Below are positions 26,493 through 57,492 of a stretch of 64,000 bases of DNA, in pieces. The position numbers and the translations under genes are program-made. Every line of letters begins with the position of its first letter. Position 1 is the first letter of the stretch. The notes beneath the pieces were generated by a model. The model was not told the origin of the DNA and ran no database searches. It worked only from the letters and a program-made list of their open reading frames with translations. Source of the DNA: an uncultured delta proteobacterium (lineage in GTDB: Bacteria > Desulfobacterota > Binatia > Binatales > Binataceae); NCBI GenBank assembly GCA_963761255.1, contig CAVXGH010000006.1, forward strand, positions 263,790 to 327,789, given 5' to 3'.

Positions 26493-27961
26493 TTGGTCAA
26501 TGCCGAATCCCGATCCAACGCCATAATTCTCGGGCGCGCGTTATTGTAATCCTTAACGAACGCATCGAGAAACTCCTGCATCAGTGCGCGCCACTGCTCA
26601 CGGACCTTGACGTCATCCTTGTCGGCGATCGAGTCGGCCAATCGGGCGAAAAATTCCAGCGCCGGCGAATACATGAATTGGGCGCTCACTTCGGAGGTGA
26701 ACCTTATCGACCCGTCAGCCAGCGCCTGCGAGGTCACCTCGCTACGCATCCCGCCCGAGCCTTGCGCGACGGTTCGCATGAACTCTCCCCCGATGAACTC
26801 GGCGCCTTGCTGAATTCCCGGAGGCGCGACCACCATCGGCACCGCATCCATGCGGGCTTCAAAGGTGACGGTCGAATTGTTACGGAGGTACCGGTTAATG
26901 AAACTCAGGTCGTCGAGCCCGAAGTCCATCCCGAGGCGATGGATGCGAATCGAGGTACGCGATCGATTCATCCCACTGCGCAAAGAATCCAGCGCGATTG
27001 GCTGCCCGACGGGGCGGTCGGCATCATCGAAAGCCGACAGCTCGCCGGCGCGCACCATGAACGTCATCCAGACCTTGCCGCGATCGAAACCGCTACGCAT
27101 CCAGTAGTCGCCTTTTTCGTCCATAATGTCGACTTGCGCCGTCAGTATGGGTGCGACGTCCTGGTAGAATCTGTGTAGATCGGGAAATTTCCGCATCGCT
27201 TCGGCTCGGACTTCACCGGCGAAGTTAAACAGCACATAAGGACCGCCGACAGCTTCGAACTCGTCGAGGATGTTCTCGTACTTCAAGTATTGGTGGAATT
27301 TGTCATCGAGGGTCGGCAGGTCGCGGCGGAAGCGATCGCGCGCGACGACATCATGATGGTTGTAGAGGCCAGGTGCCGTATCCCATGGCGGGGCGAGGTC
27401 GCCATAGACCTCGGTCAGCATTTGCGCGATCGAATCGATGATTGCGCCAAAACCAAAAGTATTGGTTTTCATTTCACCCCCGAAGGTTCCGATGACCGAT
27501 GGCAGCGAGGACGACGTGCGGGCTACGCCCGGTGGCGGCTTCAATGCGAAATAGGCTTCCAAGTGAAACGGCTGCTGGGGCTTCGCGCAGGATGAGGAGG
27601 TCGTAACATAGAAGTTCTCGCCGCTCGGATATCCTTCCGCGCAAAGTTGATGTGTTTCATCAAGTTTGATCCACGGGATATCACGACGAGAGTATACCGA
27701 CGCCGCCCGAATCAGCGTCGAGTTCCGAGGCGGGATTTTTTCGAAGAGCGCTTTGAGGGTAGGGCTGTACTCGGGATGCAGCACCTCGCGCTGGAAGACA
27801 AGTTGCCGATCGAGGACCTCCATCGCACGTTCTGCGCGCCGAGGCCCTGGAGATACGAGCTGCAGGATTGGCGCGAAGTCGGTGCGCGTCGGCGGCGCGA
27901 AGCCGGCATCGTCCGCCGCCATCGAGAGCTGGCAGAATGCCAAAATCATCAGGACAATCAC
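26489..27961 (-). CDS. secreted hypothetical protein (~490 aa)
   Basis: Long ORF with good codon usage; likely start GTG/ATG ~27949-27961 giving signal peptide (…IVIVLMILAFCQLSMA|ADD); upstream part of the 642-aa ORF overlaps rpmE and is not coding. Confidence 0.5.
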   Translation of the reverse strand: MIVLMILAFCQLSMAADDAGFAPPTRTDFAPILQLVSPGPRRAERAMEVLDRQLVFQREVLHPEYSPTLKALFEKIPPRNSTLIRAASVYSRRDIPWIKLDETHQLCAEGYPSGENFYVTTSSSCAKPQQPFHLEAYFALKPPPGVARTSSSLPSVIGTFGGEMKTNTFGFGAIIDSIAQMLTEVYGDLAPPWDTAPGLYNHHDVVARDRFRRDLPTLDDKFHQYLKYENILDEFEAVGGPYVLFNFAGEVRAEAMRKFPDLHRFYQDVAPILTAQVDIMDEKGDYWMRSGFDRGKVWMTFMVRAGELSAFDDADRPVGQPIALDSLRSGMNRSRTSIRIHRLGMDFGLDDLSFINRYLRNNSTVTFEARMDAVPMVVAPPGIQQGAEFIGGEFMRTVAQGSGGMRSEVTSQALADGSIRFTSEVSAQFMYSPALEFFARLADSIADKDDVKVREQWRALMQEFLDAFVKDYNNARPRIMALDRDSALTK

Positions 27962-28051
27962 TATTGCCCGAATTCCCGGCGCATTGACCAGCCGAATTGT
28001 GTGGTTATCTTGGGGATGGTATCTTGTCTGCCGATACCAAGGACAACTTAG

Positions 28052-28282
28052 ATGAAATCTGCAATCCATCCCGAATACCATCGGTGCGTAGTGACCTGCG
28101 CATGCGGAAATACCTTCGAAACTCGTTCGACGGCCAGCGAGCTCCACGTCGAGGTGTGCTCGAATTGTCATCCGTTCTACACCGGCCAACAGCGGCTGGT
28201 CGATACGGCGGGCCGCGTTGAGCGCTTCAATCGCAAGTACGGCATCAAGAAAGCACCGGAAGCCGCCGCCGCGGAAAAGTAG
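28052..28282 (+). CDS. rpmE: 50S ribosomal protein L31
   Basis: [10 protein letters not shown]…CxCG…[12 protein letters not shown]… zinc ribbon. Confidence 0.9.
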
Positions 28283-28416
28283 CATTGGAACTCCCGCCAC
28301 CCTGGGGCGCGCTGCGCTCGGGTGCGCGGGGGGATGAAACTTCGTTGGGAGAATGGAACGCCGCCGCGCGCCATCTCCCTTTTTGTTTCCGCGTCCGATG
28401 AAGTGACTTAACTCCA

Positions 28417-29481
28417 ATGCTCGACGATAAGATCAAAGGCATCGAACAACGCTTCGATGAACTCGAAGGCCGCCTGAGCGATCCCGCGGTAATCGCCAAT
28501 CAGCGCGAGTATACCGCGCTCGCCAAAGAGCGTTCGCAGATGGCCGAGGTCGCGGGCGCGGTGCGCGACTATCGCAAAGTCTCGAACGAGATCGAGGAAT
28601 ACAGGTCGTACATGGATGGCGATGATGCCGACATGCGCGAGCTGGCCAAGGGCGAGCTACCTGAGTTGCAGCGCCGGCTTGCGGCGCTCGAAGAGAGGAT
28701 TCGCGTGCTGCTGACGCCGCGCGATCCCAATGATGACAAGAACGTCATCCTCGAGATTCGTGCGGGAACCGGCGGCGCCGAGGCCTCGCTCTTCGCCGCC
28801 GAATTGTTTCGCCTCTACACCCGCTATGCCGAACGCCATCGATGGAAGGTCGAAACGCTCAGCATGTCGGACACCGGCCTCGGCGGCATCAAGGAAGTCG
28901 TCGCCAGCATCAACGGAAAGGGTGCCTATTCGCGCCTGAAATATGAGGGCGGGGTGCATCGCGTGCAGCGCGTTCCTGCCACCGAGGCATCGGGACGCAT
29001 CCACACCTCGGCGGTCACCGTAGTGGTGATGCCCGAGGCTGACGAGGTCGAGATCAACATCAACGAGGAAAAAGATCTCCGCATCGATGTGATGCGCGCC
29101 TCGGGTCCCGGCGGCCAAAGCGTCAACACCACCGACTCCGCCGTGCGCATCACGCATATTCCCAGCGGGATGGTGATCATCTGTCGCGATGAAAAGTCGC
29201 AGCACAAGAACAAGGCGCGGGCGCTAAAGATCCTTCGCGCGAGGCTCCTCGACAAGGCCAACGCCGAGCAGGATGCCAAGATCGCGGCGCAGCGCAAATC
29301 GATGGTGGGAACTGGCGACCGTTCCGAGCGCATCCGCACCTACAACTTCCCGCAGTCGCGCGTCACCGACCATCGCGTCAACCTGACGCTTCATCAGCTC
29401 GACCAGGTCCTCGATGGCGATATCGACACGCTCATCGACGCGCTCACGACCCAGGAACAGGCCGAGGCGCTCAGCGCGTAA
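28417..29481 (+). CDS. prfA: peptide chain release factor 1
   Basis: GGQ motif (SGPGGQSVNTTDSAVRITH), PAT tripeptide motif (RVPATEASGRIHTS). Confidence 0.9.
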   Translation: MLDDKIKGIEQRFDELEGRLSDPAVIANQREYTALAKERSQMAEVAGAVRDYRKVSNEIEEYRSYMDGDDADMRELAKGELPELQRRLAALEERIRVLLTPRDPNDDKNVILEIRAGTGGAEASLFAAELFRLYTRYAERHRWKVETLSMSDTGLGGIKEVVASINGKGAYSRLKYEGGVHRVQRVPATEASGRIHTSAVTVVVMPEADEVEININEEKDLRIDVMRASGPGGQSVNTTDSAVRITHIPSGMVIICRDEKSQHKNKARALKILRARLLDKANAEQDAKIAAQRKSMVGTGDRSERIRTYNFPQSRVTDHRVNLTLHQLDQVLDGDIDTLIDALTTQEQAEALSA

Positions 29482-29513
29482 ACTCTGCGATTTAAGTTTA
29501 TACTCTACTCGCG

Positions 29514-30374
29514 ATGCTCCAGAACGTAAGTCCTGCTTCTTCTCGCGCGATGCTCGATGAAGCGTGTCTAATCCTCGCCGAGGCCGGCATCGACACCGCC
29601 CGTCTCGATGCCGAGGTGCTCCTCGCGCATGCCTGCGGAGCCTCGCGCGCCAATTTGCTCGCCGGTTTGGCGGTCGATGCCGATGCTGCTGAAAAATTTC
29701 GCCGCATGATTTCCCGCCGCAGGGCGCGTGAGCCCATCGCATATATCATCGGATGCCGGGAATTCTTCTCTCTCGATTTCGAGGTGACCCCGGCCGTTCT
29801 CATTCCTCGTCCCGAGACCGAGACGCTCGTCGAGGCCGCGCTGAAGTTTCTCGCGACGCGTCCCGAGTCGCACGTCCTCGACCTCGGCACCGGTTCGGGC
29901 GCGATCGCGATTGCGATTGCGACGAAAGCACAAAAAGCACAAATGAAAGGCACCGATATATCACAAGCAGCACTTGAGGTTGCGCGGCGCAATGCGCTCC
30001 GCCATCGATGCGACACGCGCATCGATTTCATCGTTGCCGATCTCTTTCCCGCTGACCCCGCGCGCTTCGATCTGATCGTCTCGAATCCTCCCTATGTCGC
30101 CGAAACTGACCTCGCAAATCTCCAGCCCGAGATTCGCCTCCACGAACCTCGCGTCGCGCTTACCGATGCTGCCGATGGGCTGGCTTTCTATCGCCGCATC
30201 GCGACCGCGAGCCGCTCGCGCCTCAATCCCGGCGGCGCGGTGATGGTGGAAATCGGGGCCGGCCAGGCTCGCGAGGTCGAGGCTCTTTTCCGCCGCGCCG
30301 GTTTCAGCAACATTGATGCGATACGGGATCTCGCGGGCATCGAGCGCGTCATTTGCGCGCAAGCCTCGAAATGA
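29514..30374 (+). CDS. prmC: release-factor glutamine N5-methyltransferase
   Basis: NPPY motif (IVSNPPYV), SAM-binding VLDLGTGSGAIA; follows prfA. Confidence 0.85.
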   Translation: MLQNVSPASSRAMLDEACLILAEAGIDTARLDAEVLLAHACGASRANLLAGLAVDADAAEKFRRMISRRRAREPIAYIIGCREFFSLDFEVTPAVLIPRPETETLVEAALKFLATRPESHVLDLGTGSGAIAIAIATKAQKAQMKGTDISQAALEVARRNALRHRCDTRIDFIVADLFPADPARFDLIVSNPPYVAETDLANLQPEIRLHEPRVALTDAADGLAFYRRIATASRSRLNPGGAVMVEIGAGQAREVEALFRRAGFSNIDAIRDLAGIERVICAQASK

Positions 30375-30390
30375 TCGCGTCACCACATCA

Positions 30391-31659
30391 ATGGACAAAA
30401 TGATCATCCACGGCGGCGCTCCTCTCAAAGGCGCCGTCAATGTCAGTGGCAGCAAGAACGCCACGCTGCCGATCCTGATGGCGTCGCTGCTGACCCGGGA
30501 ACCCGTCCGCATCCGCAACGTCCCGCACCTGCGCGACGTCGAGACCGCGCTCGCGCTGCTGCGCCGTCTCGGGGTGCAATGCGCGTGGACCGGCGACCAT
30601 AACCTGGTGCTGCAAGCCGAGAATGTCACCTCGCACGAGGCGCCTTACGACCTCGTCAAGACCATGCGCGCGTCGTTTTTCGTGCTCGGCCCGCTGCTGG
30701 CCCGGGCCAAACGCGCCAAGGTTTCCACTCCCGGTGGATGCGCGATCGGCGCGCGCCCCGTCAACCTGCACATCCTGGGCATTCGCGCGCTCGGCGCGCG
30801 CGTGCAGTTGCGCAATGGCTACGTCGAGGCGCATGCCGACCGGCTCGAAGGCGCGCGCATCTGGCTCGACAATCCTTCGGTGGGCGCGACCGAGAACATC
30901 ATGATGGCGGCGGTGCTGGCCGCCGGCAAAACCACCATCGAAAATGCGGCGCGCGAGCCCGAGGTGCAGGACCTCGCGAAATTCCTGGTTGCGATGGGCG
31001 CCAACGTGCGCGGCGCCGGCACCCACGTCATCGAGATCGAAGGCGTCACCAAGATGCATGGCGCCGATCACGAGGTGATTCCCGATCGCATCGAGGCGGG
31101 CTCGCTGATGGTCGCGGCGGCAATCACCGGCGGCGACGTGTCGATTCGAAACGTCCCGGTCGATCAGCTCGAAGCCGTCATCGTCAAGTTGCGCGAAACC
31201 GGCGTCTCGGTGGTCGCCGCCGATGGCGGCGTGCGCGTCAGCGGCGGCGGCGCGCTGCGTCCGGTCGAGCTGCGGACGCTGCCGCATCCCGGATTTCCGA
31301 CCGACCTGCAGGCGCAGATGATGGCGCTGCTGGCGCAAGCGAATGGCACCTCGGTCATCACCGAGACGATTTTCGAAAATCGCTTCATGCACGCGCTCGA
31401 GCTGATGCGGATGGGCGCCGACATCGTGATGAAAGGTTCGACCGCGGTGGTCCGCGGCGTGCCGCGATTGCAAGGCGCCCCGGTGATGGCGACTGACTTG
31501 CGCGCGAGCATGGGTCTGATCCTCGCGGGTTTGAGCGCCGAAAATTCGACCGAGATCGGCCGCGTCTATCATCTCGATCGCGGCTACGAAGCCCTCGACG
31601 CGAAGCTGTCGTCCTTGGGCGCGCACATCGAACGCGTGAAAGATTCCGTGGCATCGTAA
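30391..31659 (+). CDS. murA: UDP-N-acetylglucosamine 1-carboxyvinyltransferase
   Basis: MDKMIIHGGAPLKGAVNVSGSKNATLPIL…; full-length MurA. Confidence 0.9.
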   Translation: MDKMIIHGGAPLKGAVNVSGSKNATLPILMASLLTREPVRIRNVPHLRDVETALALLRRLGVQCAWTGDHNLVLQAENVTSHEAPYDLVKTMRASFFVLGPLLARAKRAKVSTPGGCAIGARPVNLHILGIRALGARVQLRNGYVEAHADRLEGARIWLDNPSVGATENIMMAAVLAAGKTTIENAAREPEVQDLAKFLVAMGANVRGAGTHVIEIEGVTKMHGADHEVIPDRIEAGSLMVAAAITGGDVSIRNVPVDQLEAVIVKLRETGVSVVAADGGVRVSGGGALRPVELRTLPHPGFPTDLQAQMMALLAQANGTSVITETIFENRFMHALELMRMGADIVMKGSTAVVRGVPRLQGAPVMATDLRASMGLILAGLSAENSTEIGRVYHLDRGYEALDAKLSSLGAHIERVKDSVAS

Positions 31660-31689
31660 CCTCCGCATGATAGACTGCGCTGACAGGCG

Positions 31690-31781
31690 GTCGACTCCTG
31701 ATGCAGTGCCGGTCTATTATAAAAATCTAATGCGATAGACTTCCGCTTCGTTTTATGTTATTATAATTTTCTGATAGACGG
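31690..31781 (+). promoter_or_regulatory. AT-rich (≈35-40% GC) promoter/operator region of the higBA-like module with three GATAGAC motifs incl. inverted pair GTCTAT…ATAGAC
   Basis: Sharp GC drop relative to the ~63% background; repeated/inverted GATAGAC half-sites just upstream of the toxin start. Confidence 0.3.
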
Positions 31782-32147
31782 ATGAAATGGACCTTCGACG
31801 ATTTTCTACACGCCTCCGGGGAGAGCGTGATCGAACAGTGGTTTGTCCAAATTGGCGACGAGCCGGAAGCATTCATTGAACGCCGCTTGCGCGATATGCG
31901 GCCGCTGCGGACTTGGCCGGAAAAGTGGGCCAGCAAGTATAAGGGTATCGACTTAATCGAGCTGCGAATTACTTTCAAAAAAGTGCAGTACCGGCCATTG
32001 GGTTGTTACGCTCCGGAATTTCACTTCTGGTTGCTCGCCGGAGCCATCGAAAAAGGGAAAATACCGAAGTCCGACATCGAGACCGCGACCGCCCGGAAGA
32101 AAATGGTCGAAGGCGGCCTGGGCAGGATCAGAGAACATGAATTTTAG
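31782..32147 (+). CDS. higB: HigB-like toxin (RelE/ParE superfamily, Gp49/DUF891-type)
   Basis: …KGIDLIELRITFKKVQYRPLGCYAPEFHFWLLAGAIEKGKIPKSDIETA… matches ELRI…YR…LL.G..K….DIE.A signature. Confidence 0.7.
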   Translation: MKWTFDDFLHASGESVIEQWFVQIGDEPEAFIERRLRDMRPLRTWPEKWASKYKGIDLIELRITFKKVQYRPLGCYAPEFHFWLLAGAIEKGKIPKSDIETATARKKMVEGGLGRIREHEF

Positions 32148-32562
32148 TCTTCGAAAGTTCCTTCGTAAGCGATACCGCGACGTTTTCGGCACTTCGATAA
32201 CGGGTACTACCGCGGCGCAGATCCGCGCGATGCGTGAGCAGCGCGGATGGACCCAGGAGGACTTCGCGCAAAAAATTGGGATGGGTCAAGCACGAATATC
32301 GCTTCTGGAAAATCCGAACTATGAGAACTTGAGTCTGAAGACTCTAAAGCGGGTTGCGAACGTTTTCGACGTAGCGCTGGTCGTCCGGTTTGCGCCCTTC
32401 AGCCGGCTCTTGGAGATGGTCGAGAGTGAAAACCCTGAAACACTTGCGGTCCCGAGTTTTGCAGATGAATTTGGTAGTGGCGAAGTCTCGATCGTCAAGT
32501 CGTCTCCGGAAATGACCGATTTCCATGAGCCGCTCCGGGAGTTTGATCGAGATCGGCGCTGA
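32137..32562 (+). CDS. higA: HigA-like antitoxin, XRE-family HTH regulator
   Basis: …AAQIRAMREQRGWTQEDFAQKIGMGQARISLLEN… HTH_XRE; 11-bp overlap with toxin gene. Confidence 0.7.
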   Translation: MNFSLRKFLRKRYRDVFGTSITGTTAAQIRAMREQRGWTQEDFAQKIGMGQARISLLENPNYENLSLKTLKRVANVFDVALVVRFAPFSRLLEMVESENPETLAVPSFADEFGSGEVSIVKSSPEMTDFHEPLREFDRDRR

Positions 32563-32595
32563 GCAGACCTGGAGAAGGTCCCGCGCGCCTTGGCT

Positions 32596-32655
32596 TCAAG
32601 AGCGGCGTGTCATGGCGACTGACCTGCGCGCGAGCATGGGCCTGATCCTCGCAGG
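32596..32655 (+). other. ~55-bp remnant / direct repeat of the murA 3' coding end (≈90% identical to 31483-31540)
   Basis: tcATGGCGACTGACcTGCGCGCGAGCATGGGcCTGATCCTCGCaGGgTTGAaG vs murA …VMATDLRASMGLILAGLS…; translated fragment VMATDLRASMGLILAGLK. Confidence 0.7.
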
Positions 32656-32759
32656 GTTGAAGTCTGAGATGACGTGTTCCCGCGGATACTGGCGTTTAGC
32701 GCGGGCTCTTTAAACTGCGCACCTCGATAGAGTATGTAAACTAGCAGACAACCGAGGCC

Positions 32760-34240
32760 GCTCTCTCTGTTATTCTGAGCGGAGGCTGCCGCAGCGAAGG
32801 ATCTACGCGCAGCGATGGGACCGTTCGGCAACGCCGAACGGTCGCCCTGAGCCTTGCGAAGGGCCTCCGCGCACTCTGCTTTATTTTTGTCATTCTGAAG
32901 CGAGCGGAACGCGACGCTGAAGAACCTCAGCCGAGGTGACTCAGCAAATGTCACTTCAGCATTCGCATGGTTCTTCTCTCCGCGATGGTGGAATGCGAAC
33001 GCGCTCCGTTCGCATGCTGCAGTGACATTCGGTGGTCAGGCACATCCGAGGTTCTTCGGCAGCGCAAGCTTGCCTCAGAATGACAAGCCACGGAGACGAT
33101 TTACTCGCGGATGGCATGGCATCACGATTCCCACGCCAAGTGCGAATCTCTTGCTCAGCTACCCCGCTAACCCGTTCCTCGCCCCGGGCTGCGAATAATG
33201 CTGCACGCTGTCACATTCGTGCCAATCGATTCGGTGCCTCCTGGCTTGTGATTCCGGTATTCGCCGTTTTGTCATTCTGAAGCGAGCGGAACGCGATGCT
33301 GAAGAACCTCGGCCGAGGTGACTCAGCAAATGTCACTTCAGCATTCGCATGGTTCCTCTCTCCGCGATGGTGGAATGCGAACGCGCTCCGTTCGCATGCT
33401 GCAGTGACATTCGGTGGTCAGGCACATCCGAGGTTCTTCGGCAGCGCAAGCTTGCCTCAGAATGACAAGCCACGGAGACGATTTACTCGCGGATGGCATG
33501 GCATCACGATTCCCACGCCAAGTGCGAATCTCTTGCTCAGCTACCCCGCTAACCCATTCCTCGCCCCGGGCTGCGAATAATGCTGCACGCTGTCACATTC
33601 GTGCCAATCGATTCGGTGCCTCCTGGCTTGTCATTCCGGTATCCGCCGTTTTGTCATTCTGAACCGAGCGGAACGCGATGCTGAAGAACCTCGGCCGAGG
33701 TGACTCAGCAAATGTCACTTCAGCATTCGCATGGTTCTTCTCTCCGCGATGGTGGAATGCGAACGCGCTCCGTTCGCATGCTGAAGTGACATTCGGTGGT
33801 CAGGCACATCCGAGGTTCTTCGGCAGCGCAAGCTTGCCTCAGAATGACAAGCCACGGAGACGATTTACTCGCGGATGGCATGGCATCACGATTCCCACGC
33901 CAAGTGCGAATCTCTTGCTCAGCTACCCCGCTAACCCATTCCTCGCCCCGGGCTGCGAATAATGCTGCACGCTGTCACATTCGTGCCAATCGATTCGGTG
34001 CCTCCTGGCTTGTCATTCCGGTATTCGCCGTTTTGTCATTCTGAAGCGAGCGGAACGCGATGCTGAAGAACCTCGGCCGAGGTGACTCAGCAAATGTCAC
34101 TTCAGCATTCGCATGGTTCTTCTCTCCGCGATGGTGGAATGCGAACGCGCTCTCATTCGCATGCTGAAGTGACATTCGGTGGTCAGGCACATCCGAGGTT
34201 CTTCGGCAGCGCAAGCTTGCCTCAGAATGACAAGCTTGCG
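32760..34240. repeat. tandem array of a 382-bp unit (one degenerate leading copy + 3 full + 1 truncated copy); each unit contains a ~235-bp imperfect palindrome with ~95-bp arms
   Basis: Exact 382-bp periodicity (unit starts 32887, 33269, 33651, 34033), copies >97% identical; arms TTGTCATTCTGAAGCGAGC…/…GCTTGCCTCAGAATGACAA and internal hairpins (GCGAACGCGCTCCGTTCGC). Confidence 0.9.
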
Positions 34241-34362
34241 GGAGGCTTGGGGTCGCCCGCTTCAGCCATTCGTCGATGGCGCCGGTTACGGAATTGGCGC
34301 CACTATTGTAGAGGCGACCGCGCGTGGACTGCCTCGCCTCGCTCGCCTACACTCCGCACCAC

Positions 34363-35685
34363 ATGAAGCCCCGCATCCTCAAGTCCGGAACTTCTGAGTT
34401 CAAGCGCTTCCTCGACGCCATCATCGCGCGGCGCGGTGGCGATGACGATGCGGCGCGCGTCGATGCTGCCGTGAGCGCAATCATCGCGGATGTGCGCAAG
34501 CGCGGCGATGCCGCGCTGATCGAATACACCGAGAAATTCGATCGCGTGAAGCTGACGCCGAAGACCTTGCGGGTCTCATCGAAGGAGCTTCGCGACGCGC
34601 TAGCACAGCTGCCTAAAAAGGATCGCGTCGCGCTCGAACTGGCGGCGCGCCGCATCGCCGCGTTTCATAAGAAGACTATCGAGAAGCCATTCTCCTATAC
34701 CGACAGCCTCGGGATGCGGCTCGGCCAGATGGTGCGCCCGCTCGATCGCGCGGGGATTTATGTGCCGGGCGGAATGGGCGCGTATCCGTCCTCGGTGCTG
34801 ATGAATGCGATTCCCGCGCGCGTCGCCGGAGTTCGCGAAATCGTCATGGTCTCGCCGCCCTCGGCCGAGAGCGACCGCCCCGAGGTGATGGCTGCGGCTG
34901 CGATTGCCGGCGTCGATGAATTCTATCGCGTCGGCGGTGCGCATGGGGTTGCCGCGCTCGCCTACGGAACCTCGAGCATCGCGGCCGTCGACAAGATCGT
35001 CGGGCCCGGAAATGCGTACGTCCAGGCCGCCAAGCGCATGGTCTATGGTGTAGTGGATATCGACAAAATGGCGGGTCCGAGCGAGGTCCTCGTCATTGCC
35101 GATGACAGCGCGCATGCCGCCTGGGTCGCCGCCGACCTCATCGCGCAAGCCGAGCATGGCTCCGGCGACGAATCCGCAGTGATGCTAACTCCTTCGCAAA
35201 AGCTCGCCGATGCGGTGTCGGATGCGCTCGTGGCGGCGCTGGTGGATTTGCCACGCGCCCGCGCCGTCGAAGCCGTCCTCGACAAGCGAGGCGCCCTGGT
35301 GGTCGTGCGGGACCTGGAAGAAGCTTTCGAGCTCGCAAATATCATCGGACCTGAACATCTGGAGCTCGAAATCCGCAATCCTTCGCGATGGCTCCCCAAA
35401 GTTAAAGCAGCAGGTGCGATTTTCCTCGGTCCGATGAGTCCGGCTCCGTTAGGCGATTATCTCGCTGGCCCAAACCATGTTCTACCCACCGGCGGCTCGG
35501 CTCGTTTTGCGTCTCCTCTCGGCGCTTACGATTTTCTCAAGCGCACCAGTATAATCGAGGCGTCGCCCAAGGCGCTGCGCAAGCTCGGTCCGACGGTCGC
35601 GCGGCTGGCGCGGATGGAAGGATTCGAGGGTCATGCGCGCGCGATGGAGACTCGTTACCAACCGAACGGGCGGCGGGGAAAATAA
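34363..35685 (+). CDS. hisD: histidinol dehydrogenase
   Basis: Full-length HisD (…IVGPGNAYVQAAKR…, …AEHGSGDES…). Confidence 0.9.
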   Translation: MKPRILKSGTSEFKRFLDAIIARRGGDDDAARVDAAVSAIIADVRKRGDAALIEYTEKFDRVKLTPKTLRVSSKELRDALAQLPKKDRVALELAARRIAAFHKKTIEKPFSYTDSLGMRLGQMVRPLDRAGIYVPGGMGAYPSSVLMNAIPARVAGVREIVMVSPPSAESDRPEVMAAAAIAGVDEFYRVGGAHGVAALAYGTSSIAAVDKIVGPGNAYVQAAKRMVYGVVDIDKMAGPSEVLVIADDSAHAAWVAADLIAQAEHGSGDESAVMLTPSQKLADAVSDALVAALVDLPRARAVEAVLDKRGALVVVRDLEEAFELANIIGPEHLELEIRNPSRWLPKVKAAGAIFLGPMSPAPLGDYLAGPNHVLPTGGSARFASPLGAYDFLKRTSIIEASPKALRKLGPTVARLARMEGFEGHARAMETRYQPNGRRGK

Positions 35686-36398
35686 TGGCGAGCAAAAAGA
35701 AAACGAAAGTTCGCGCAGTATCGGCACCGGCGCGCCGGCACATCGAGGCCTCTAACGGCGCGCATGATGAAAGCCGCGCCCTGATGCCCACACTCCACAG
35801 CGACAATGGCAAGCGCGTCGCGCACGTCGATCGCAAGACGCGCGAGACCGCGGTGAAGATCGCGCTCAAGCTCGATGGCGGCGGGCGTGGCGAAATCGCT
35901 ACCGGCGTCCCGTTCCTCGATCACATGCTCGATAGTTTCGCGCGCCATGGTTTTTTCGATCTCAAAATCGAGGCGAAGGGCGACCTCCAGATCGACGAGC
36001 ATCACACGGTCGAGGACGTCGGCATCGTGCTCGGCAAGGCGTTCGCGCAGGCGCTCGGCGATCGCTCCGGTATCAAGCGCTACGGCGAGGCGACGGTTCC
36101 GCTCGACGAGGCGCTCTGCTCGGTGGTGGTCGATATCAGCGGGCGCTCGTATCTCGCCTACAACGTGCCGATCACGCAGGAGCGGGTGGGTTCGTTTCAG
36201 ACCGAGCTGGTGCATGATTTCATGAAGGCGCTGAGCGACAACGTCGGGATGAACCTGCACATGAACATGCTGAGCGGGCGCAATCCTCATCACGTGATCG
36301 AGGCGTCATTCAAAGCGCTCGCGCGTGCGATGGATACGGCGACCTCGCTGGAGCCGCGCGTGGCGGGAGTGCTATCGACGAAGGGAACATTGAGCTGA
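35685..36398 (+). CDS. hisB: imidazoleglycerol-phosphate dehydratase (start may be internal Met ~35781)
   Basis: …DRKTRETAVKIALKLDGGG…GVPFLDHMLDSFARHG…VEDVGI…. Confidence 0.85.
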   Translation: MASKKKTKVRAVSAPARRHIEASNGAHDESRALMPTLHSDNGKRVAHVDRKTRETAVKIALKLDGGGRGEIATGVPFLDHMLDSFARHGFFDLKIEAKGDLQIDEHHTVEDVGIVLGKAFAQALGDRSGIKRYGEATVPLDEALCSVVVDISGRSYLAYNVPITQERVGSFQTELVHDFMKALSDNVGMNLHMNMLSGRNPHHVIEASFKALARAMDTATSLEPRVAGVLSTKGTLS

Positions 36399-36411
36399 GG
36401 GAAAACCCGCG

Positions 36412-38649
36412 CTATTTTTTCACCTTCGGCGCCTTGCCGGTTACCGAGGCCGCGACGCTCACGACGCCGACGCTCGAGTTGCTGGTGATCTGCACGCTCC
36501 CGGTGTTGGTTCCTACGGTCGAGGGCGTCATCGTGAATGCCAGGGTGCATTTGCCCTTGGGCGCGAGACTCATCCCGGCGGTGCAGGTGCCGCCCGACCG
36601 CGCAAGGTTCGAGCTAATGGCGAAGCTCTTCAGCGTGATCGAAGCGCTACCCTTCGCCGCTCCATTTTCCACCGTGAGTGTCTTCGGTTTGCTCGCCGTG
36701 CCGGTCGTGGTGGTTGCGAATTTCAAGGCGCCGGGACTGGCTTCCAGTTTCGAAGCTACCGGCGGCATCGGCGCGGCGAGGTACGCGGTGACGAATGCGT
36801 CGGCATCGATCGAGCCCCATCCGGTCACCAGGTCATAGCCGGGGCCGGCGGAATATCCCTGCACGGTGACCGCGCCATGCCCGCTGACATTGCTGATGTA
36901 GGTGTTGTCGCCGGAAGTGATGTCATGGAATCCATGCGCCGCCTGCCCCGCGACACCCAATTCCCAGACGATCGGGTTGAGACTGCCGAGCCGCCGGCCG
37001 CCATTTGCAGTTTGCAGAAGGCGCGAATAACCCGCCCACAACGGCGCGGCGAGACTGGTGCCGACGACTAAATAATTGGACTGGGTAGGTTTAGCGACGC
37101 CGGCCACATCGGTATCGGCGAAAATAACGATGTCGGGTTTGCCCGCCAGCGAGGCCACGTCGGGAAGGTCGCGAGAGTTATCATTGCTGGTACCCGCCAC
37201 TCCCAGTTGCCATGAAGGCCTGGTAAAAACGCTGCTGATGCCGCCTCCACTGACCTCGTTCTTGCCGGCCAGGGCGGCGTTACCGTTTTGATTGTTCCAT
37301 GATGACTCGGTCGAATAGCCGGTCGAGAACCCGTTGGTGTAAGTCGGCGAGTCTACTTCAGTGCCGCCGACCGAAGTGGTCAGCGGATTGGCGCCGAGTT
37401 CGTTTACATTGGGCGAACCGGTCTGGCAGGTATCGGCGCCATGATCGCCCGCGGACACGAACACCGACTGCCCCTGGGCTTGTGCCCTGGAAAACAGATT
37501 GCCCAGGGTAGTCGTAAAAAAGGCGTTGGACGCACCGCAGACGTGGTAGCTGAAATTCAACGCGCCGCATTTGTTCTCGGTGGTCATCGCCGTGATCGCG
37601 TCGGTCAGATTCTGTGCGAACGAGAGTTTGTCGGGGTTGGTGACATACAGCGTTATCGGCGCGCCCGGCGCGATCAGATGCGCGGCCTCGATATCGAGAT
37701 AGGCCTCGATGTCGGCGCCGTTGCCGATAACTCCTGGATTAGTCTCCCGGGAAAGATCGATGGTGAGGGCGGGGTTGGTCGCGAAGGAGGTGTACTGCGA
37801 GAAAAGCGCGAAGTAGTCCTTAAGAATGGTGGCCTGCGACGGCTCGGTAAAAATGTTGGTGTTGGCGAAGATCCCGATACAGTCCCCGCCGTTGGCGCCG
37901 GTGTTGCCGCCCTCCAGCAGCGGGGTTTCGTCATAGAAGGTGTAAAAATCCGGCGGACCGAAAGTAAGGCCCGAGCCACCGATTGTCTCGAGGCTGAAAT
38001 CGGGGCCCGACCCCGCGGCGTGGCCATCGCGCTTCATGACCGGGAGTTTGCGAAGACTCGGTTTCAGCCTGGCAGTCGCATCGTCGGGCTCGAGGCTGCC
38101 CAGGTTCTGCATCCCGAGGATATCGCCGATTAAGCCGGCGAACTGCGCGGGGATTTCAGGTTCCATCAGATTGGCGAATTTGCCGTTGCCAAAGTCCTCG
38201 AGCTGAGTGTTGAACGTCCGCTCGACCGATACGGTATCGGTACTGAAGCGAAGGTAGCCGTCCTCGCGCGAGCCGCCGAGGATCTGGAAGCCACTCGCAG
38301 TCAGCCAATCCTGCACCGCCGAAAAATCGCTCGCGCTCACTCCGAACCGGCGCGTGAAGTCATCCGAAGTGATCCATTGATGGTATTGCGATGAAGCCGG
38401 ATCGATTTGCGCCGCGATTAGCTGATCGAGCTGCGCTCGGTTGCGGATCGCGAATCGAATGTCGAGGGTCAGGGTCTTGGCGGGATCGAGATGCCTAAGG
38501 ACGGCCATCGTCGCCGCGGCGGGCGGGACCGTCCCGCGCATCTTCACCACCTGCGCCATCGCCACGGACGGGATGACAGACATCAGGATGAAAATCGCGA
38601 ACGATTGAGCTCGACGTTTGGCAGACTCAAACGGAACGACCGGCGAATG
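36412..38649 (-). CDS. secreted S53-family serine peptidase (sedolisin/kumamolisin-like) with pro-peptide activation domain and C-terminal Ig-like domain
   Basis: Signal peptide, pro-kumamolisin activation domain, catalytic Ser motif VVGTSLAAPLWAGY; C-terminal β-sandwich tail shared with other proteins in the cluster. Confidence 0.8.
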   Translation of the reverse strand, partial: HSPVVPFESAKRRAQSFAIFILMSVIPSVAMAQVVKMRGTVPPAAATMAVLRHLDPAKTLTLDIRFAIRNRAQLDQLIAAQIDPASSQYHQWITSDDFTRRFGVSASDFSAVQDWLTASGFQILGGSREDGYLRFSTDTVSVERTFNTQLEDFGNGKFANLMEPEIPAQFAGLIGDILGMQNLGSLEPDDATARLKPSLRKLPVMKRDGHAAGSGPDFSLETIGGSGLTFGPPDFYTFYDETPLLEGGNTGANGGDCIGIFANTNIFTEPSQATILKDYFALFSQYTSFATNPALTIDLSRETNPGVIGNGADIEAYLDIEAAHLIAPGAPITLYVTNPDKLSFAQNLTDAITAMTTENKCGALNFSYHVCGASNAFFTTTLGNLFSRAQAQGQSVFVSAGDHGADTCQTGSPNVNELGANPLTTSVGGTEVDSPTYTNGFSTGYSTESSWNNQNGNAALAGKNEVSGGGISSVFTRPSWQLGVAGTSNDNSRDLPDVASLAGKPDIVIFADTDVAGVAKPTQSNYLVVGTSLAAPLWAGYSRLLQTANGGRRLGSLNPIVWELGVAGQAAHGFHDITSGDNTYISNVSGHGAVTVQGYSAGPGYDLVTGWGSIDADAFVTAYLAAPMPPVASKLEASPGALKFATTTTGTASKPKTLTVENGAAKGSASITLKSFAISSNLARSGGTCTAGMSLAPKGKCTLAFTMTPSTVGTNTGSVQITSNSSVGVVSVAASVTGKAPKVKK

Positions 38650-43388: not shown

Positions 43389-45262
43389 GTGCGCCCAGCA
43401 TGGCGCGTGACTTGTGAGGTGAAAGTCCTCTGTGCGAGCAGGCCGCGTCGAGCACTAGCGAAGCGCAAGGGCGTCATCGTGAGATGGGGTCTGGAGGAAG
43501 CGCGGAGCAAAGCCGCGAGCCGACGAACAGGAACCGGATACAAGGGCGAGGTGGCTCAGGGCGAGCGGGCAAATGACCGCGAAGCTCTATCGGCCAAGGA
43601 GTCATCGCGTAGATCCGGCGGTTTGTGCGGCGAAGGTCACGGCGTCTTACCTGGGGAGATCTCGCTTCACGCCTGAAAGGGCGACGCGCAGGAGCGCGGA
43701 GCGAGAAGTCAGCCGAGGCCGTAGTAGTCAGCGGGACACGGCAGAGGCCTCGATGTCCGCGCTGATGAAGGGCCGAACGGAAGGGAGAGCGAAGCCGCTG
43801 TGAGTCCGAAAGACGCCAGGCGCCAGAAGCCCGAGCAATTGGGGCTGCCGCTGGAAGGTAGAGGTGAAGCCTCGAGGGTCCAGCGCAGCGGCGAAGCGTC
43901 GACGATGGCGAACAGAGAGGAGCGCTCGGGAAGCGACCGCCTGATGGAAGCGGTGGTTGCGCGCGGCAATGTCAGGGCGGCGTTGACGCGGGTACGTGAG
44001 AACCGGGGCAGCCCCGGAGTCGAGGGGATGACGGTGGAAGAACTGCCGCAGCACCTGATGGAGCACTGGCAGGAAGTCCGCGAGCAACTACTCGCCGGAA
44101 CTTACCAGCCCAAAGCGGTGCTGCGACGGGAAATCCCGAAAGCGAGCGGCGGAATGCGAGAGCTCGGCATTCCGTGCGTGCTCGACCGGCTGATCCAACA
44201 GGCGATACTGCAGGTGCTGCAGCCGCGATTCGACCCCAGCTTCTCGGAGCACAGTTACGGCTTCCGGCCGGGGCGCAGCGCGCACGACGCGGTGTTAGCG
44301 GCGCAGCGCTATGTGCAGGAAGGACGCCACTGGGTGGTGGACGTGGACCTGGAGAAGTTCTTCGACCGGGTCAACCACGACGTGCTGATGGGAAGACTAG
44401 CGCGGCGAATCGATGACTCGCGGCTCCTGCGGCTAATCCGCCGCTATCTCAACGCCGGCCTGATGGCCGACGGAGTGGTGATGGAACGCACTGAGGGAAC
44501 GCCGCAGGGAGGACCACTGTCGCCACTGCTGGCGAATCTCCTGCTTGACGAAGTGGACAAGGAGCTGGAGAAACGCGGGCACACGTTCGTGCGCTATGCC
44601 GACGACTGCAACGTCTATGTGCGGTCGCGGCGCGCGGGAGAACGAGTGATGGCGGCGCTGGAGCGAATGTACGCCAAGCTCCGACTTAAAGTGAATCGCG
44701 AGAAGAGCAAGGTGGACCTCGCGCACAAGCGCAGCCTCTTGAGCTACAGCTTCTGGTACGCCAGGGGCGGCGCGGTGGCATGCCGGGTCGCACCCAAGGC
44801 GCTGCGCGCGCTCAAGCAGCGCGTGCGGCGGATAACCAGACGCAGCGGCGGACGGAGCATGAGAAGCGTAGTCGCGGAGCTGAGGAAGTATCTGCCGGGA
44901 TGGAAGCAATACTTCCAACTAGCGGACACGCCGAAGACCTTCGCTGACTACGACAAATGGCTCCGCCACCGGTTGCGAGCGCTGCAACTCAAACAGTGGA
45001 AGCGCGGCTCGAAGATCTATACCGCGATGCGCCGCCTCGGACTGCCGGACGCGATTGCGGCGCAAGCCGCACGGGTTAACCGACGCTGGTGGCATCGGGC
45101 CGCCATGTCGGTCCACGCCGGACTCACTGCCCGCTACTACGACCGACTTGGAGTACCCAGACTTGCCGATTAACCTCAACCTTCCGAACCGCCGGATGCG
45201 GACCCGCATGTCCGGTGGTGTGGCAGGGGAGTAGCGCTGCGGCGCTACCCCCTATGCCGATT
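43389..45262 (+). mobile_element. group II intron, bacterial class C-like (ORF in domain IV), inserted immediately downstream of an intrinsic terminator
   Basis: 5' end GUGCGCC (GUGYG consensus) right after the terminator T-run. ORF-containing DIV. Domain V-like hairpin CCGCCGGAUGCGG…CCGCAUGUCCGGUGG (CGC catalytic triad variant typical of class C). Domain VI hairpin with bulged A (CCCCCUAUGCC) ~8 nt before the 3' end. Confidence 0.7.
43905..45173 (+). CDS. group II intron-encoded reverse transcriptase/maturase
   Basis: RT motifs incl. FVRYADDCNVYV (YADD), maturase/X domain (…RKYLPGWKQYF…). Confidence 0.85.
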   Translation: MANREERSGSDRLMEAVVARGNVRAALTRVRENRGSPGVEGMTVEELPQHLMEHWQEVREQLLAGTYQPKAVLRREIPKASGGMRELGIPCVLDRLIQQAILQVLQPRFDPSFSEHSYGFRPGRSAHDAVLAAQRYVQEGRHWVVDVDLEKFFDRVNHDVLMGRLARRIDDSRLLRLIRRYLNAGLMADGVVMERTEGTPQGGPLSPLLANLLLDEVDKELEKRGHTFVRYADDCNVYVRSRRAGERVMAALERMYAKLRLKVNREKSKVDLAHKRSLLSYSFWYARGGAVACRVAPKALRALKQRVRRITRRSGGRSMRSVVAELRKYLPGWKQYFQLADTPKTFADYDKWLRHRLRALQLKQWKRGSKIYTAMRRLGLPDAIAAQAARVNRRWWHRAAMSVHAGLTARYYDRLGVPRLAD

Positions 45263-56977: not shown

Positions 56978-57492
56978 GGCGCTGCCGCTTCAACTTGATG
57001 GTTCGCAAAACCGGAATTGACAATTGTTGACGAACGAATTCCACGCCCCCTATGGTTGCCGATTCTCACTTCAAACGGCCTTTGCCGACCGAACGAAAAA
57101 TCGCAACCAACGAGCTAGACGGCGCGAAAATCGTTGCGCCACCGAGGTTGTGAAAAGAGCGCTCCCCTTTTGAGTCACTTACGCTTCTTTGAACCTAAAA
57201 TTTTATCAGAATGGTCATCAACAGTGCAATCAATTTTTCCGAAGGCGCAAAAAAACGCGATTGGGAGAGCGCGGTTTAGATTCGAACTCGCAGCGAACGA
57301 TGAGGAATCGCATCGATACATTGCGCATCTGAGAGCGTCGTCTCGAAGTTAAACCGATTCTGTTCAATTCTGGCGTAATCGCCGCGCCTGAGCATGCGAG
57401 AAGGCTTCGATGCTTGATCACGAGTGCAAAGATAGGCTTTGAATGTAGCCTCGCAAAAGTGAATTTTGAGTAAGCGAAGGGAAGGAAAGACG

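What the first reader, a model, noticed from the sequence alone, without database searches (positions are those of the whole stretch)
32760..34240. 1.5-kb tandem array of a 382-bp palindrome-bearing unit between the higBA module and hisD
Four-plus head-to-tail copies with exact 382-bp periodicity and >97% identity, so this is a recent amplification or under concerted evolution. Each unit is dominated by a ~235-bp imperfect palindrome with ~95-bp arms (TTGTCATTCTGAAGCGAGC… pairing with …GCTTGCCTCAGAATGACAA) plus nested perfect hairpins, so an RNA or DNA cruciform structure is conserved. The repeated 82/94-aa ORFs inside are low-complexity and identical between copies, so they are not credible proteins. 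The array sits exactly where foreign DNA (TA module, murA 3' duplication) has entered the chromosome. Candidates are a structured ncRNA array, a MITE-like element amplified in tandem, or an att/recombination hotspot satellite. I cannot assign it to any known repeat or RNA family from sequence alone.
Basis: seen in the sequence. Interest (0 to 1): 0.7.

Follow-up and report, generated by a model that had tools for sequence, protein, structure and literature searches.

The report
Tandemly amplified REP-like hairpin repeat cluster
The 1.35-kb stretch upstream of hisD holds four copies of a 200-bp hairpin-forming intergenic repeat, common in Binataceae genomes, separated by three copies of a 182-bp spacer; it is real, but it is an ordinary kind of bacterial repeat cluster and not a new RNA gene or system.

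Summary
The array is real. It runs 32885-34235 with period 382, 3.5 copies and 98% identity, and a second, independently assembled strain carries it copy for copy. Its anatomy is P-S-P-S-P-S-P: four 200-bp imperfect palindromes (P) and three 182-bp spacers (S).

P is not unique. Full-length relatives (68-79% identity) lie dispersed in intergenic DNA of Candidatus Binataceae MAGs, usually within 50 bp of a stop codon. Each P end is a ~40-nt module with three parts: an unpaired TGTC tag, a covarying 5-bp stem (ATNCY/RGNAT) and a CTCG tail. The same module, in inverted pairs around variable cores, occurs in many phyla and in 119 IMG/VR contigs. It fits the published CGTC/TGTC-tagged REP superfamily, which has no known transposase.

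S has no homolog anywhere I searched. Relatives have different cargo between murA and hisD, with no P and no S.

Best reading: two REP-dimer-like elements bracketing 182 bp were amplified by unequal recombination before the two strains split. This makes a BIME/NIME-like cluster. No Rfam or Pfam match was found, no promoter or terminator was predicted inside the array, and I found no evidence for an RNA gene. Novelty: new member of a known kind. Interest is low to moderate.

The parts
32768..32804 (+). Solitary, slightly degenerate terminal-type module (TGTTATTCTGA...GAAGGATCT). It lies upstream of the array and is not part of the tandem repeat.
   Evidence: In strain L001 the same site reads as the canonical TGTCATCCTGA...GAAGGATCT (differences at 32771 and 32774). 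Related copies occur in L043.
32887..33086 (+). P1, a 200-bp imperfect palindrome made of left module 32887-32930, core 32931-33045 and inverted right module 33046-33086.
   Evidence: fold.
33087..33268 (+). S1, a 182-bp spacer. Its 3' end carries a degenerate tag-like motif (TTGTGATTCCGG, ~33246-33257) just before the next P.
   Evidence: No homolog was found elsewhere, and there is no significant similarity to P.
33269..33468 (+). P2 (left module 33269-33312, core 33313-33427, right module 33428-33468).
33469..33650 (+). S2.
33651..33850 (+). P3 (left module 33651-33694, core 33695-33809, right module 33810-33850).
33851..34032 (+). S3.
34033..34233 (+). P4, 201 bp with a 1-nt insertion in the central hairpin (left module 34033-34076, core 34077-34192, right module 34193-34233). 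It ends the array 129 bp before the hisD start.
31782..32562 (+). Flanking two-gene module: a Gp49/HigB-like ORF (31782-32147) and an HTH_3 antitoxin-like ORF (32137-32562).
   Evidence: Gp49 E 0.0011, below the Pfam cut-off; HTH_3 E 4e-13.
32609..32660 (+). Displaced fragment of the murA 3' region, a direct repeat of 31483-31534. The two copies bracket the higB-like/HTH island.
   Evidence: 90% over 52 bp. The fragment also matches the murA 3' region of relatives at 80-87%.
34363..35685 (+). hisD, with the likely true start at ATG 34363 giving 440 aa as in homologs.
   Evidence: Histidinol_dh E 6e-160; homologs of 438-447 aa covering 97% of the query.

Best explanation
The array is a BIME/NIME-like cluster of selfish intergenic hairpin repeats. 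It is not a gene.

What P is. P belongs to a dispersed family of ~190-210-bp elements in Candidatus Binataceae genomes. Each element is a head-to-head dimer of two ~40-nt REP-like modules around a ~115-nt core. A module consists of an unpaired (T/C)GTC tag, a 5-bp stem ATNCY/RGNAT that closes a variable inner hairpin, and a CTCG/CTAG tail.

How the array arose. The ancestral state at this site was P-S-P, two such elements 182 bp apart. Unequal homologous recombination, or replication slippage, between the directly repeated P copies then expanded it to P-S-P-S-P-S-P. This happened before the two sampled strains diverged. Since then the copies have drifted independently, to 1-2.5% divergence.

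Likely effect. The elements probably spread and persist as single-stranded hairpins, as REP/REPIN elements do. They are tolerated because they sit just downstream of genes. Once transcribed they would form long hairpins in the 3' UTR or inter-operon RNA. I infer no dedicated function for the array itself.

Shown: the anatomy, family membership, module structure and covariation, the age of the array relative to the strain split, the absence of S elsewhere, and the intergenic 3'-proximal placement of family members.

Inferred: the P-S-P ancestor, the recombination mechanism, single-strand mobilisation and the lack of function.
For: 1. The repeat boundaries coincide exactly with P ends. The array begins and ends with a P, which is what unequal crossing-over between two flanking P copies predicts.
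2. Full-length P relatives (68-79% identity) are dispersed in Binataceae and MFD 'delta proteobacterium' MAGs. The window itself is Binataceae by HisD similarity.
3. All 13 family copies examined are intergenic, and 9 lie 17-49 bp from a stop codon. Across the superfamily, elements lie between co-directional (26) or convergent (12) genes and rarely between divergent ones (3).
4. The terminal stem covaries within an arm. In genome loci the pairs are T-A 72, C-G 12, G-C 6 and non-Watson-Crick 5. There are 24 compensatory cells against 3.6 +/- 1.6 in shuffles, with 0 of 500 shuffles reaching that. Viral loci replicate this: TA 243, CG 47, GC 5, AT 3 and 1 mismatch. Mixed elements keep the local pairing in each arm while the left and right arms disagree with each other (L005 5532, L003, L012).
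5. The features match the published description of CGTC/TGTC-tagged REPs: an unpaired tag, a stem starting AT, a short tail, mostly head-to-head dimers and no transposase. [quoted passage not shown]
6. Smaller tandem duplications of module-bearing units exist elsewhere: L064 118 bp x1.9, L059 77 bp x1.9, L041 31 bp x2.7.
7. Copy-specific variants are shared by the window and L001. The array's divergence between strains (2 differences in 1351 bp) matches its flanks (~0.3%).
8. There is no Rfam family, no Pfam hit for the internal ORFs, and no promoter- or terminator-like site inside the array.
Against: - S has no detectable relative, so the P-S-P ancestor is inferred and has not been observed. 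Every relative I could fetch has different content between murA and hisD.
- No mobilising enzyme was identified.
- No insertion polymorphism (an empty versus a filled site) was observed for P.
- P-family sequence blocks, including core blocks such as TCACTTCAGCATTCG, are strongly conserved across MAGs. That could reflect a function I have not recognised.
- G.U pairs outnumber A.C mismatches 35 to 18 on the aligned strand. This is compatible with some RNA-level constraint.
- Only 64 kb of the source genome was available. I therefore could not count P copies genome-wide or see whether S occurs elsewhere in it.
Confidence: 0.75

Rival explanations
1. The array encodes structured non-coding RNAs. 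Each P, or each 382-bp unit, is an RNA gene or a cis-regulatory hairpin, for example an mRNA stabiliser or insulator between the toxin-antitoxin pair and hisD, and copy number is functionally relevant.
For: - The predicted hairpins are very stable (z -5.3 to -5.6).
- Wobble pairs outnumber A.C mismatches 35 to 18 on the aligned strand.
- The better-folding strand tends to be the transcribed one, 15 versus 7.
- Family members sit just after stop codons, as do REPs known to stabilise mRNAs.
Against: - There is no Rfam match even at E up to 10.
- Conservation is symmetric between arms, and only 2 of 55 long-range pairs show compensatory change.
- Element orientation relative to the upstream gene is mixed, about 5 same and 3 opposite.
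- Cores are unalignable at orthologous sites.
- The 15-versus-7 trend is not significant.
- No promoter or intrinsic terminator was predicted inside the array.
Confidence: 0.1
2. P is a classical MITE, a deletion derivative of a DDE-transposase insertion sequence with terminal inverted repeats TGTCATTCTGA.../...TCAGAATGACA. The array arose by repeated insertion next to itself.
For: - The TGT...ACA termini and reiterated subterminal motifs resemble transposon ends.
- 2 of 150 ORFs flanking modules hit DDE_Tnp_IS1595.
Against: - There are no target-site duplications. The flanks are inverted complements (pyrimidine-rich on the left, purine-rich on the right), not direct repeats.
- No locus shows a transposase bracketed by outward-tagged modules. 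The only + ... - pair at kb spacing encloses a YwiC-like membrane protein.
- Covariation lies within an arm, which points to hairpin recognition rather than duplex end recognition.
- S is amplified along with P, which repeated insertion would not do.
Confidence: 0.07
3. The array is a NIME-like substrate for a site-specific recombinase. The modules would be recombinase binding or integration sites, as dRS3 is for Neisseria filamentous phages, and the array would both result from and promote the cargo turnover seen between murA and hisD.
For: - The murA-hisD interval carries different cargo in every relative: hicAB, a DUF2141 gene, an 809-aa ORF.
- The alternation of modules and spacers mirrors dRS3-RS arrays (PMC1797815).
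- Modules are abundant in IMG/VR contigs.
- Cores are exchanged at orthologous sites while the modules stay.
Against: - The local island is bounded by murA 3' direct repeats, not by modules.
- Relatives with other cargo have no modules at this locus.
- There is no recombinase gene next to the array.
- The units are near-identical copies of one P and one S rather than a mosaic of different RS families.
Confidence: 0.12
4. The array is an assembly artefact, a collapsed or expanded repeat.
For: A short-read contig (L002) breaks at the neighbouring 52-bp repeat. This shows that repeats in this region do disturb assemblies.
Against: Two assemblies of strains that differ by 2% agree on copy number and on copy-specific SNPs.
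Confidence: 0.02

Closest known systems
CGTC/TGTC-tagged REP superfamily (Di Nocera, De Gregorio & Rocco 2013, PMC3733652)
   Same: - An unpaired (C/T)GTC tag at one end.
- A stem whose first two positions are A and T.
- A short unpaired tail.
- Units mostly arranged as head-to-head dimers able to fold into larger hairpins.
- Location downstream of genes.
- No dedicated transposase.
- Clusters in which dimers are reiterated in tandem with flanking DNA.
   Different: - The published families have 8-9-bp stems and 4-5-nt loops, about 25-30 nt in all.
- The window's modules have a conserved 5-bp stem closing a 22-26-nt inner hairpin, and the dimer encloses a ~115-nt conserved core.
- The tail is CTCG/CTAG rather than CCA.
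- The published phyla do not include Binatota, Chloroflexota, Omnitrophota or Patescibacteria.
- The family consensus sequences are in a figure that is not held, so I could not compare them base by base.
Neisseria intergenic mosaic elements (NIME: dRS3 + RS arrays; PMC1797815)
   Same: - Arrays in which short palindromic repeats alternate with 50-200-bp spacer repeats in intergenic DNA. dRS3 (ATTCCCN8GGGAAT) is classed as CGTC-1.
- Arrays lie at syntenic positions across strains.
- Arrays are associated with variable loci.
   Different: - NIME arrays are mosaics of many RS families and vary in length between strains.
- Here one P and one S are repeated near-identically, and copy number is the same in both strains.
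- dRS3 has a known phage recombinase that targets it. No such enzyme was found here.
E. coli-type REP/BIME clusters and REPINs with RAYT transposases
   Same: Intergenic palindromic units, inverted doublets forming long hairpins, clustering, 3'-of-gene location, and presumed single-strand hairpin recognition.
   Different: - Those carry a GTAG tag and are associated with RAYT (Y1 HUH) genes that are flanked by the repeats.
- Here the tag is TGTC.
- No RAYT association was seen among the 150 flanking ORFs, although only the 25 most frequent families were listed.
Larger hairpin-type intergenic repeats (Correia/CREE, ERIC, BOX, RUP)
   Same: Elements of 100-200 bp with inverted ends, a modular build and an intergenic location, often co-transcribed with neighbouring genes.
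   Different: There is no sequence relationship. Correia elements have a TA target duplication and IHF or promoter functions, and none of that is shown here.

Membership tests
CGTC/TGTC-tagged REP superfamily | Unpaired tetranucleotide tag CGTC (or TGTC/CCTC) at one end of the stem-loop | tested here: met
   All eight array modules start TGTC. Column 4 of alignment A2 is at least 90% T, with C in a few rows, and GTC is invariant. The tag lies outside the covarying stem.
CGTC/TGTC-tagged REP superfamily | Stem whose first two positions are complementary A and T residues | tested here: met
   The stem is ATNCY/RGNAT. Pairs A-T and T-A are present in all 72 distinct modules, but those two positions were fixed by the search pattern. 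The free positions covary.
CGTC/TGTC-tagged REP superfamily | Stem of 8-9 bp and loop of 4-5 nt | tested here: not met
   - In the window's modules a 5-bp stem closes 22-26 nt of inner hairpin.
- The widespread short form (ATTCT-GA-GCGNAGC-GA-AGAAT) is a 9-position stem with a tandem G.A and a 3-nt loop. That is close but not identical.
CGTC/TGTC-tagged REP superfamily | Short unpaired 3' tail (consensus CCA) | tested here: inconclusive
   A conserved tail exists, but it reads CTCG, CTAG or CCCT.
CGTC/TGTC-tagged REP superfamily | Predominantly head-to-head dimers, and no associated transposase gene | tested here: met
   - Inverted pairs with tags outward are the rule.
- The 150 flanking ORFs are housekeeping genes, and no transposase family has more than 2 members.
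- A single RAYT beyond the 25 families listed cannot be excluded.
REPIN/RAYT (GTAG REP) system | GTAG tag and a RAYT gene flanked by the repeats | tested here: not met
   The tag is TGTC. No gene flanked by inverted modules is a transposase. Complete genomes were not available.
NIME (Neisseria) | Arrays of dRS3-type inverted repeats separated by many different RS families, with length varying between strains | tested here: not met
   Only two spacer types are present (core and S), repeated near-identically, and copy number is identical in the two strains.
Classical MITE | Terminal inverted repeats plus direct target-site duplications, and a related autonomous insertion sequence | tested here: not met
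   Inverted ends are present, but the flanks are inverted rather than direct repeats. No autonomous partner appears in 67 genome loci.
Any Rfam RNA family | Covariance-model score at or above the family's gathering threshold | tested here: not met
   There are no hits in the array at gathering thresholds. The best permissive hits are sR10 at E 0.44 and mir-Ro6-3 at E 8.9.
P family of Binataceae (defined here) | An element of ~190-210 bp with conserved blocks TGTCATTCTGAAGC.AGC / GCTGAAGAA(C/T)CTCGG / TCACTTCAGCAT.CG.ATG and their inverted partners | tested here: met
   Alignment A1 has 11 sequences with 74% mean column identity and 72 invariant columns.

The most novel reading that the evidence does not exclude
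The TGTC-tagged hairpin module may be a single, very widely distributed mobile or recombinogenic DNA hairpin. Its canonical form is TGTC-ATTCT-GA-GCGNAGC-GA-AGAAT-CTC, and its apex is the 'extraordinarily stable mini-hairpin DNA' motif.

It occurs in Binatota, Chloroflexota, Omnitrophota, Patescibacteria, Acidobacteriota and in 119 IMG/VR contigs, and its mobilising or recognising enzyme is still unknown.

On this reading the murA-hisD array would be a NIME-like recombination substrate outside Neisseria, where such arrays were said not to occur. The modules would be the sites at which cores and neighbouring cargo are exchanged.
Probability: 0.15. Interest if true: 0.55.

Novelty: new member of a known kind. 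Interest (0 to 1): 0.28.

Why it matters
For annotation: the 82/94-aa ORFs called in this array are spurious. They are called as genes in the ENA contig. The 1.35 kb should be labelled as a repeat region, and short-read assemblies will break here.

For biology: the finding documents an undescribed REP-dimer-like family in the uncultured phylum Binatota. It also shows that the TGTC-tagged hairpin module is far more widespread than the five phyla originally reported, including CPR bacteria, Omnitrophota and viral contigs. The module has clean within-arm covariation and a mini-hairpin apex, both of which point to recognition as single-stranded DNA.

Who moves these 'orphan' REPs remains an open question. 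The array itself adds little to that question beyond being a clear example of tandem reiteration.

Tried and rejected
1. Rfam at gathering and permissive thresholds gave nothing.
2. Pfam on the array ORFs gave nothing.
3. Origin of S. BLAST against 67 genome loci found no hit. A JGI metagenome scan with a 19-mer from S returned two hits that share only 19-21 nt, which is chance level. Plasmid and phage collections had no match. Relatives' murA-hisD loci had no match. Smith-Waterman alignment of S against P scored 20-22 against a shuffle mean of 17.7 +/- 2.5, which is not significant. An nhmmer search with a P-family profile returned nothing, possibly because the targets were too short.
4. I looked for further strains carrying the array through its spurious 94-aa ORFs. 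Only the L001 contig came back.
5. I looked for an autonomous element or transposase. ORFs between paired ends are a YwiC-like membrane protein and an amino-acid permease. The Pfam census of 150 flanking ORFs shows housekeeping genes, and I did not trace the two IS1595 hits to specific loci.
6. I tested whether the better-folding strand follows transcription direction. The result was 15 versus 7, not significant.
7. Full-text searches for the repeat sequence found no relevant paper. The supplements of PMC3733652 hold no sequences to compare.
8. tblastx of the window against the repeat loci, intended to place the taxon, was uninformative. HisD homolog names settled the taxon instead.
Full report
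**1. The observation**

Tandem Repeats Finder reports a single array in 30-37 kb. It lies at 32885-34235, with period 382, 3.5 copies, 98% matches and no indels. Reading the sequence and locating the conserved ends gives the anatomy P-S-P-S-P-S-P:
- Four imperfect palindromes P: 32887-33086, 33269-33468, 33651-33850 and 34033-34233. They are 200, 200, 200 and 201 bp long.
- Three spacers S of 182 bp each: 33087-33268, 33469-33650 and 33851-34032.

P copies match at 196-198 of 200-201 positions, and S copies at 179-181 of 182. Each P is about 70% self-complementary. The unit folds much better than shuffled sequence on either strand, and also as DNA (z -4.6 to -5.6).

- There are 3.5 units, not 'four-plus'.
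- The palindrome is 200 bp, not ~235 bp.
- The array begins at 32885. The stretch from 32768 is a separate solitary module.
- The last period is 383.

**2. Not an artefact, and not very recent**

An exact-protein look-up with the neighbouring HTH protein retrieved a 437-kb ENA metagenome contig, L001. It is 97.85% identical to the window over 10.7 kb.

L001 carries the same array with the same 3.5 copies. The variants that distinguish copies 1-4 in the window are found in the corresponding copies of L001, and only two positions differ between the two arrays.

The array therefore predates the split of these strains and is not being homogenised.

Divergence between the two strains is mosaic: 5-8% at 27.7-31.5 kb and about 0.3% from 31.5 to 38.5 kb. 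The low divergence of the array simply matches its flanks.

**3. Context**

The gene order is prfA, prmC, murA, a Gp49/HigB-like ORF, an HTH_3 ORF, the array, hisD and hisB.

A 52-bp piece of the murA 3' region (31483-31534) is repeated at 32609-32660. The two copies bracket the two-gene toxin-antitoxin-like island. A short-read contig (L002) spans exactly the stretch between them.

HisD homologs named by their sources are Candidatus Binataceae or Binatus, at 74-88% identity. The window therefore comes from that lineage.

In relatives with 91-94% identical HisD, the murA-hisD interval holds quite different cargo:
- hicAB alone.
- A YopA_C-like gene plus hicAB plus a DUF2141 gene.
- An 809-aa ORF.

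None of these loci contains P, S or a module. The interval is a hotspot for gene turnover, but the array is specific to this species.

**4. P is a dispersed repeat**

A scan of one genome per GTDB species for TTGTCATTCTGARGCRAGC gave 67 loci. BLAST of P against them finds full-length relatives (68-79% identity) in several Candidatus Binataceae MAGs and in long-read soil MAGs labelled 'uncultured delta proteobacterium'.

An 11-sequence alignment (A1) shows blocks of near-invariant sequence arranged symmetrically in the two arms, separated by variable stretches. Mean column identity is 74%. RNAalifold predicts one long hairpin of 55 pairs, but only two pairs show compensatory change. The clearest is columns 45/174, with C-G five times, U-A four times and C-A twice.

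All 13 family copies examined are intergenic, and nine lie 17-49 bp from a stop codon. Orientation relative to the upstream gene is mixed. No transposase lies between or beside them.

**5. The ends are REP-like modules found across phyla**

Outside the Binataceae only the terminal ~44 nt of P are conserved, at 85-90% identity. This holds in Caldilineaceae, other Chloroflexota, Omnitrophota, a Portnoybacteria genome, Acidobacteriota, a Burkholderiales MAG and others.

Printing those elements shows a common plan:
- The left end reads (T/C)GTC-ATNCY-GA ... GA-RGNAT-CTCG.
- A variable core of 20-300 nt follows.
- The same module then appears inverted at the right end.

The two pentamers within one arm are complementary and covary:
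- In 95 modules from the genome loci, the free middle position pairs T-A 72 times, C-G 12 times and G-C 6 times, with 5 exceptions.
- On 72 distinct rows, 24 cells carry compensatory changes against 3.6 +/- 1.6 in shuffles, with 0 of 500 shuffles reaching that. Sliding the partner by one to three columns destroys the signal.
- Some elements have different variants in their left and right arms, for example ATCCT/AGGAT on the left and ATTCT/AGAAT on the right in L005. Each arm still pairs locally.

The selected structure is therefore the local stem-loop, not only the long hairpin.

An independent scan of IMG/VR for TGTCATTCTGA-N6-36-GAAGAATCTC found 119 contigs, where my rough estimate of the chance expectation is about one. 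The 299 modules in those contigs replicate the covariation: TA 243, CG 47, GC 5, AT 3 and one mismatch.

The commonest form has a 7-nt apex. It is GCGNAGC in 62 of 105 cases and ACGNAGT in 17. GCGNAGC is the 'extraordinarily stable mini-hairpin DNA' motif (PMC13037366 abstract). This is a hint that the relevant form is single-stranded DNA.

**6. Comparison with the literature**

Di Nocera et al. (PMC3733652) sorted prokaryotic REPs into GTAG- and CGTC-tagged superfamilies. They describe the CGTC class as follows:
- An unpaired tag, often TGTC.
- Stems of 8-9 bp that begin with A and T.
- Loops of 4-5 nt.
- A short tail (CCA).
- Mostly head-to-head dimers.
- No associated transposase.

Against this description:
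- The modules here meet the tag, AT-start, dimer-orientation and no-transposase criteria.
- They fail the stem and loop size criteria. The conserved stem is 5 bp, and it closes a 22-26-nt inner hairpin in the window's copies.
- The tail differs (CTCG rather than CCA).
- The published consensus sequences are in a figure that I could not read, and the supplements hold no sequences.

I therefore treat this as 'works like, and probably belongs to, the CGTC/TGTC superfamily'. I do not treat it as a proven member of one of its four families.

**7. What S is**

I could not find S anywhere else:
- It is absent from the 67 genome loci.
- A JGI metagenome scan with a 19-mer returned two chance matches of 19-21 nt.
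- It is absent from the plasmid and phage collections.
- It is absent from the relatives' loci.

S has no significant similarity to P. Its 3' end does carry a degenerate tag-like motif (TTGTGATTCCGG) just before the next P. This resembles the short reiterated left-end modules seen upstream of other family members, namely L041, L030, L057 and L058.

The ORFs that run through P and S have no Pfam match, and the 94-aa ORF lacks its start codon in copy 1.

**8. Mechanism**

The array starts and ends with P, and S is amplified together with P. The simplest history is an ancestral P-S-P, two elements 182 bp apart, expanded by unequal homologous recombination or replication slippage between the direct P repeats.

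Smaller tandem duplications of module-bearing units occur in other genomes: 118 bp x1.9, 77 bp x1.9 and 31 bp x2.7.

The copies differ from one another by 1-2.5%, against 0.15% between strains. The expansion is therefore several-fold older than the strain split.

At two orthologous sites in different Binataceae species, the flanks and the modules are conserved while the cores cannot be aligned. Modules evidently persist while cores turn over, as in mosaic elements.

Across the superfamily, elements lie between co-directional (26) or convergent (12) genes and rarely between divergent ones (3). This is the classic REP distribution.

**9. The RNA alternative**

Evidence for some RNA-level constraint is weak:
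- G.U pairs outnumber A.C mismatches 35 to 18 on the aligned strand.
- The better-folding strand is the transcribed one in 15 of 22 decisive cases, which is not significant.

Against an RNA gene:
- There is no Rfam hit.
- No promoter or intrinsic terminator is predicted inside the array.
- Conservation is symmetric between arms.
- Orientation relative to genes is mixed.

I regard a passive role as a transcribed hairpin as plausible, and an RNA gene as unlikely.

**10. Verdict**

The finding is a real, well-defined repeat array. It is explained by a known kind of object: a cluster of REP-dimer-like hairpin elements amplified in tandem with flanking DNA.

The family is undescribed for Binatota. 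The breadth of the TGTC module across phyla and viral contigs, with still no known mobilising enzyme, is the most interesting by-product of this work.

I rate it as a new member of a known kind, with interest 0.28.

Noticed in passing
window 31483-31534 and 32609-32660: A 52-bp direct repeat (90%) of the murA 3' region brackets the higB-like/HTH pair. The downstream copy also matches the murA 3' region of relatives. It looks like the scar of an island that integrated into the murA 3' end and supplied a replacement end.
   Followed up: partly
window 27750-31500 versus 31500-38500, compared with L001: Divergence between the two strains is 5-8% upstream of about 31.5 kb and about 0.3% downstream. 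This implies a recombination breakpoint near the murA 3' end.
   Followed up: partly
L072-L079 (murA-hisD interval of Binataceae relatives): The interval carries different cargo in each lineage: hicAB; a YopA_C-like gene plus hicAB plus DUF2141; an 809-aa ORF. In L072 hisD is not next to murA at all. It is a hotspot for toxin-antitoxin and other accessory genes.
   Followed up: partly
L081-L199 (119 IMG/VR contigs) and L003-L069: The 28-nt hairpin TGTC-ATTCT-GA-GCGNAGC-GA-AGAAT-CTC is common in viral contigs and in many bacterial phyla, often several copies per contig. Its apex matches the GCGNAGC 'mini-hairpin DNA' motif, with ACGNAGT as a covarying variant. I did not check whether the viral contigs are true phages or host fragments.
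   Followed up: partly
L028:3128-3313 versus L063:4257-4400; L004:6384-6562 versus L067:2902-3105: At orthologous intergenic sites in different Binataceae MAGs (flanking proteins 88-92% identical), the terminal modules are conserved but the cores cannot be aligned.
   Followed up: partly
L041:4741-4826, L030:~3889-3933, and upstream of the elements in L057/L058/L016: Short ~31-nt units (GTCATTCTGAAGCGAGCG..CGCTCC-TTTT) are reiterated head-to-tail just outside the left end of P-family elements. This is a second, smaller-scale form of tandem reiteration.
   Followed up: no
window 43473-43773: Group II intron RNA domains are present: RF02001 at 127.6 bits and RF01998 at 42.9 bits. They are unrelated to the array.
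   Followed up: no
window 57000-61000: GC drops to 52-56% with a strongly negative AT skew (down to -0.25). This may be foreign or strand-biased DNA.
   Followed up: no
A3 (150 ORFs flanking modules in L003-L067): Two ORFs match DDE_Tnp_IS1595 (best E 2e-28). I did not trace which loci they come from or whether modules bound them.
   Followed up: no
L005:1439-2098 and L024:7149-7673: Dihydrofolate reductase genes lie next to a module in two unrelated phyla, Omnitrophota and Anaerolineaceae. This is probably coincidence.
   Followed up: no
L001:2277-3914: In the ENA contig, prfA and prmC are called as one fused 545-aa product, whereas the window has two ORFs. This is probably a frameshift or assembly difference.
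   Followed up: no
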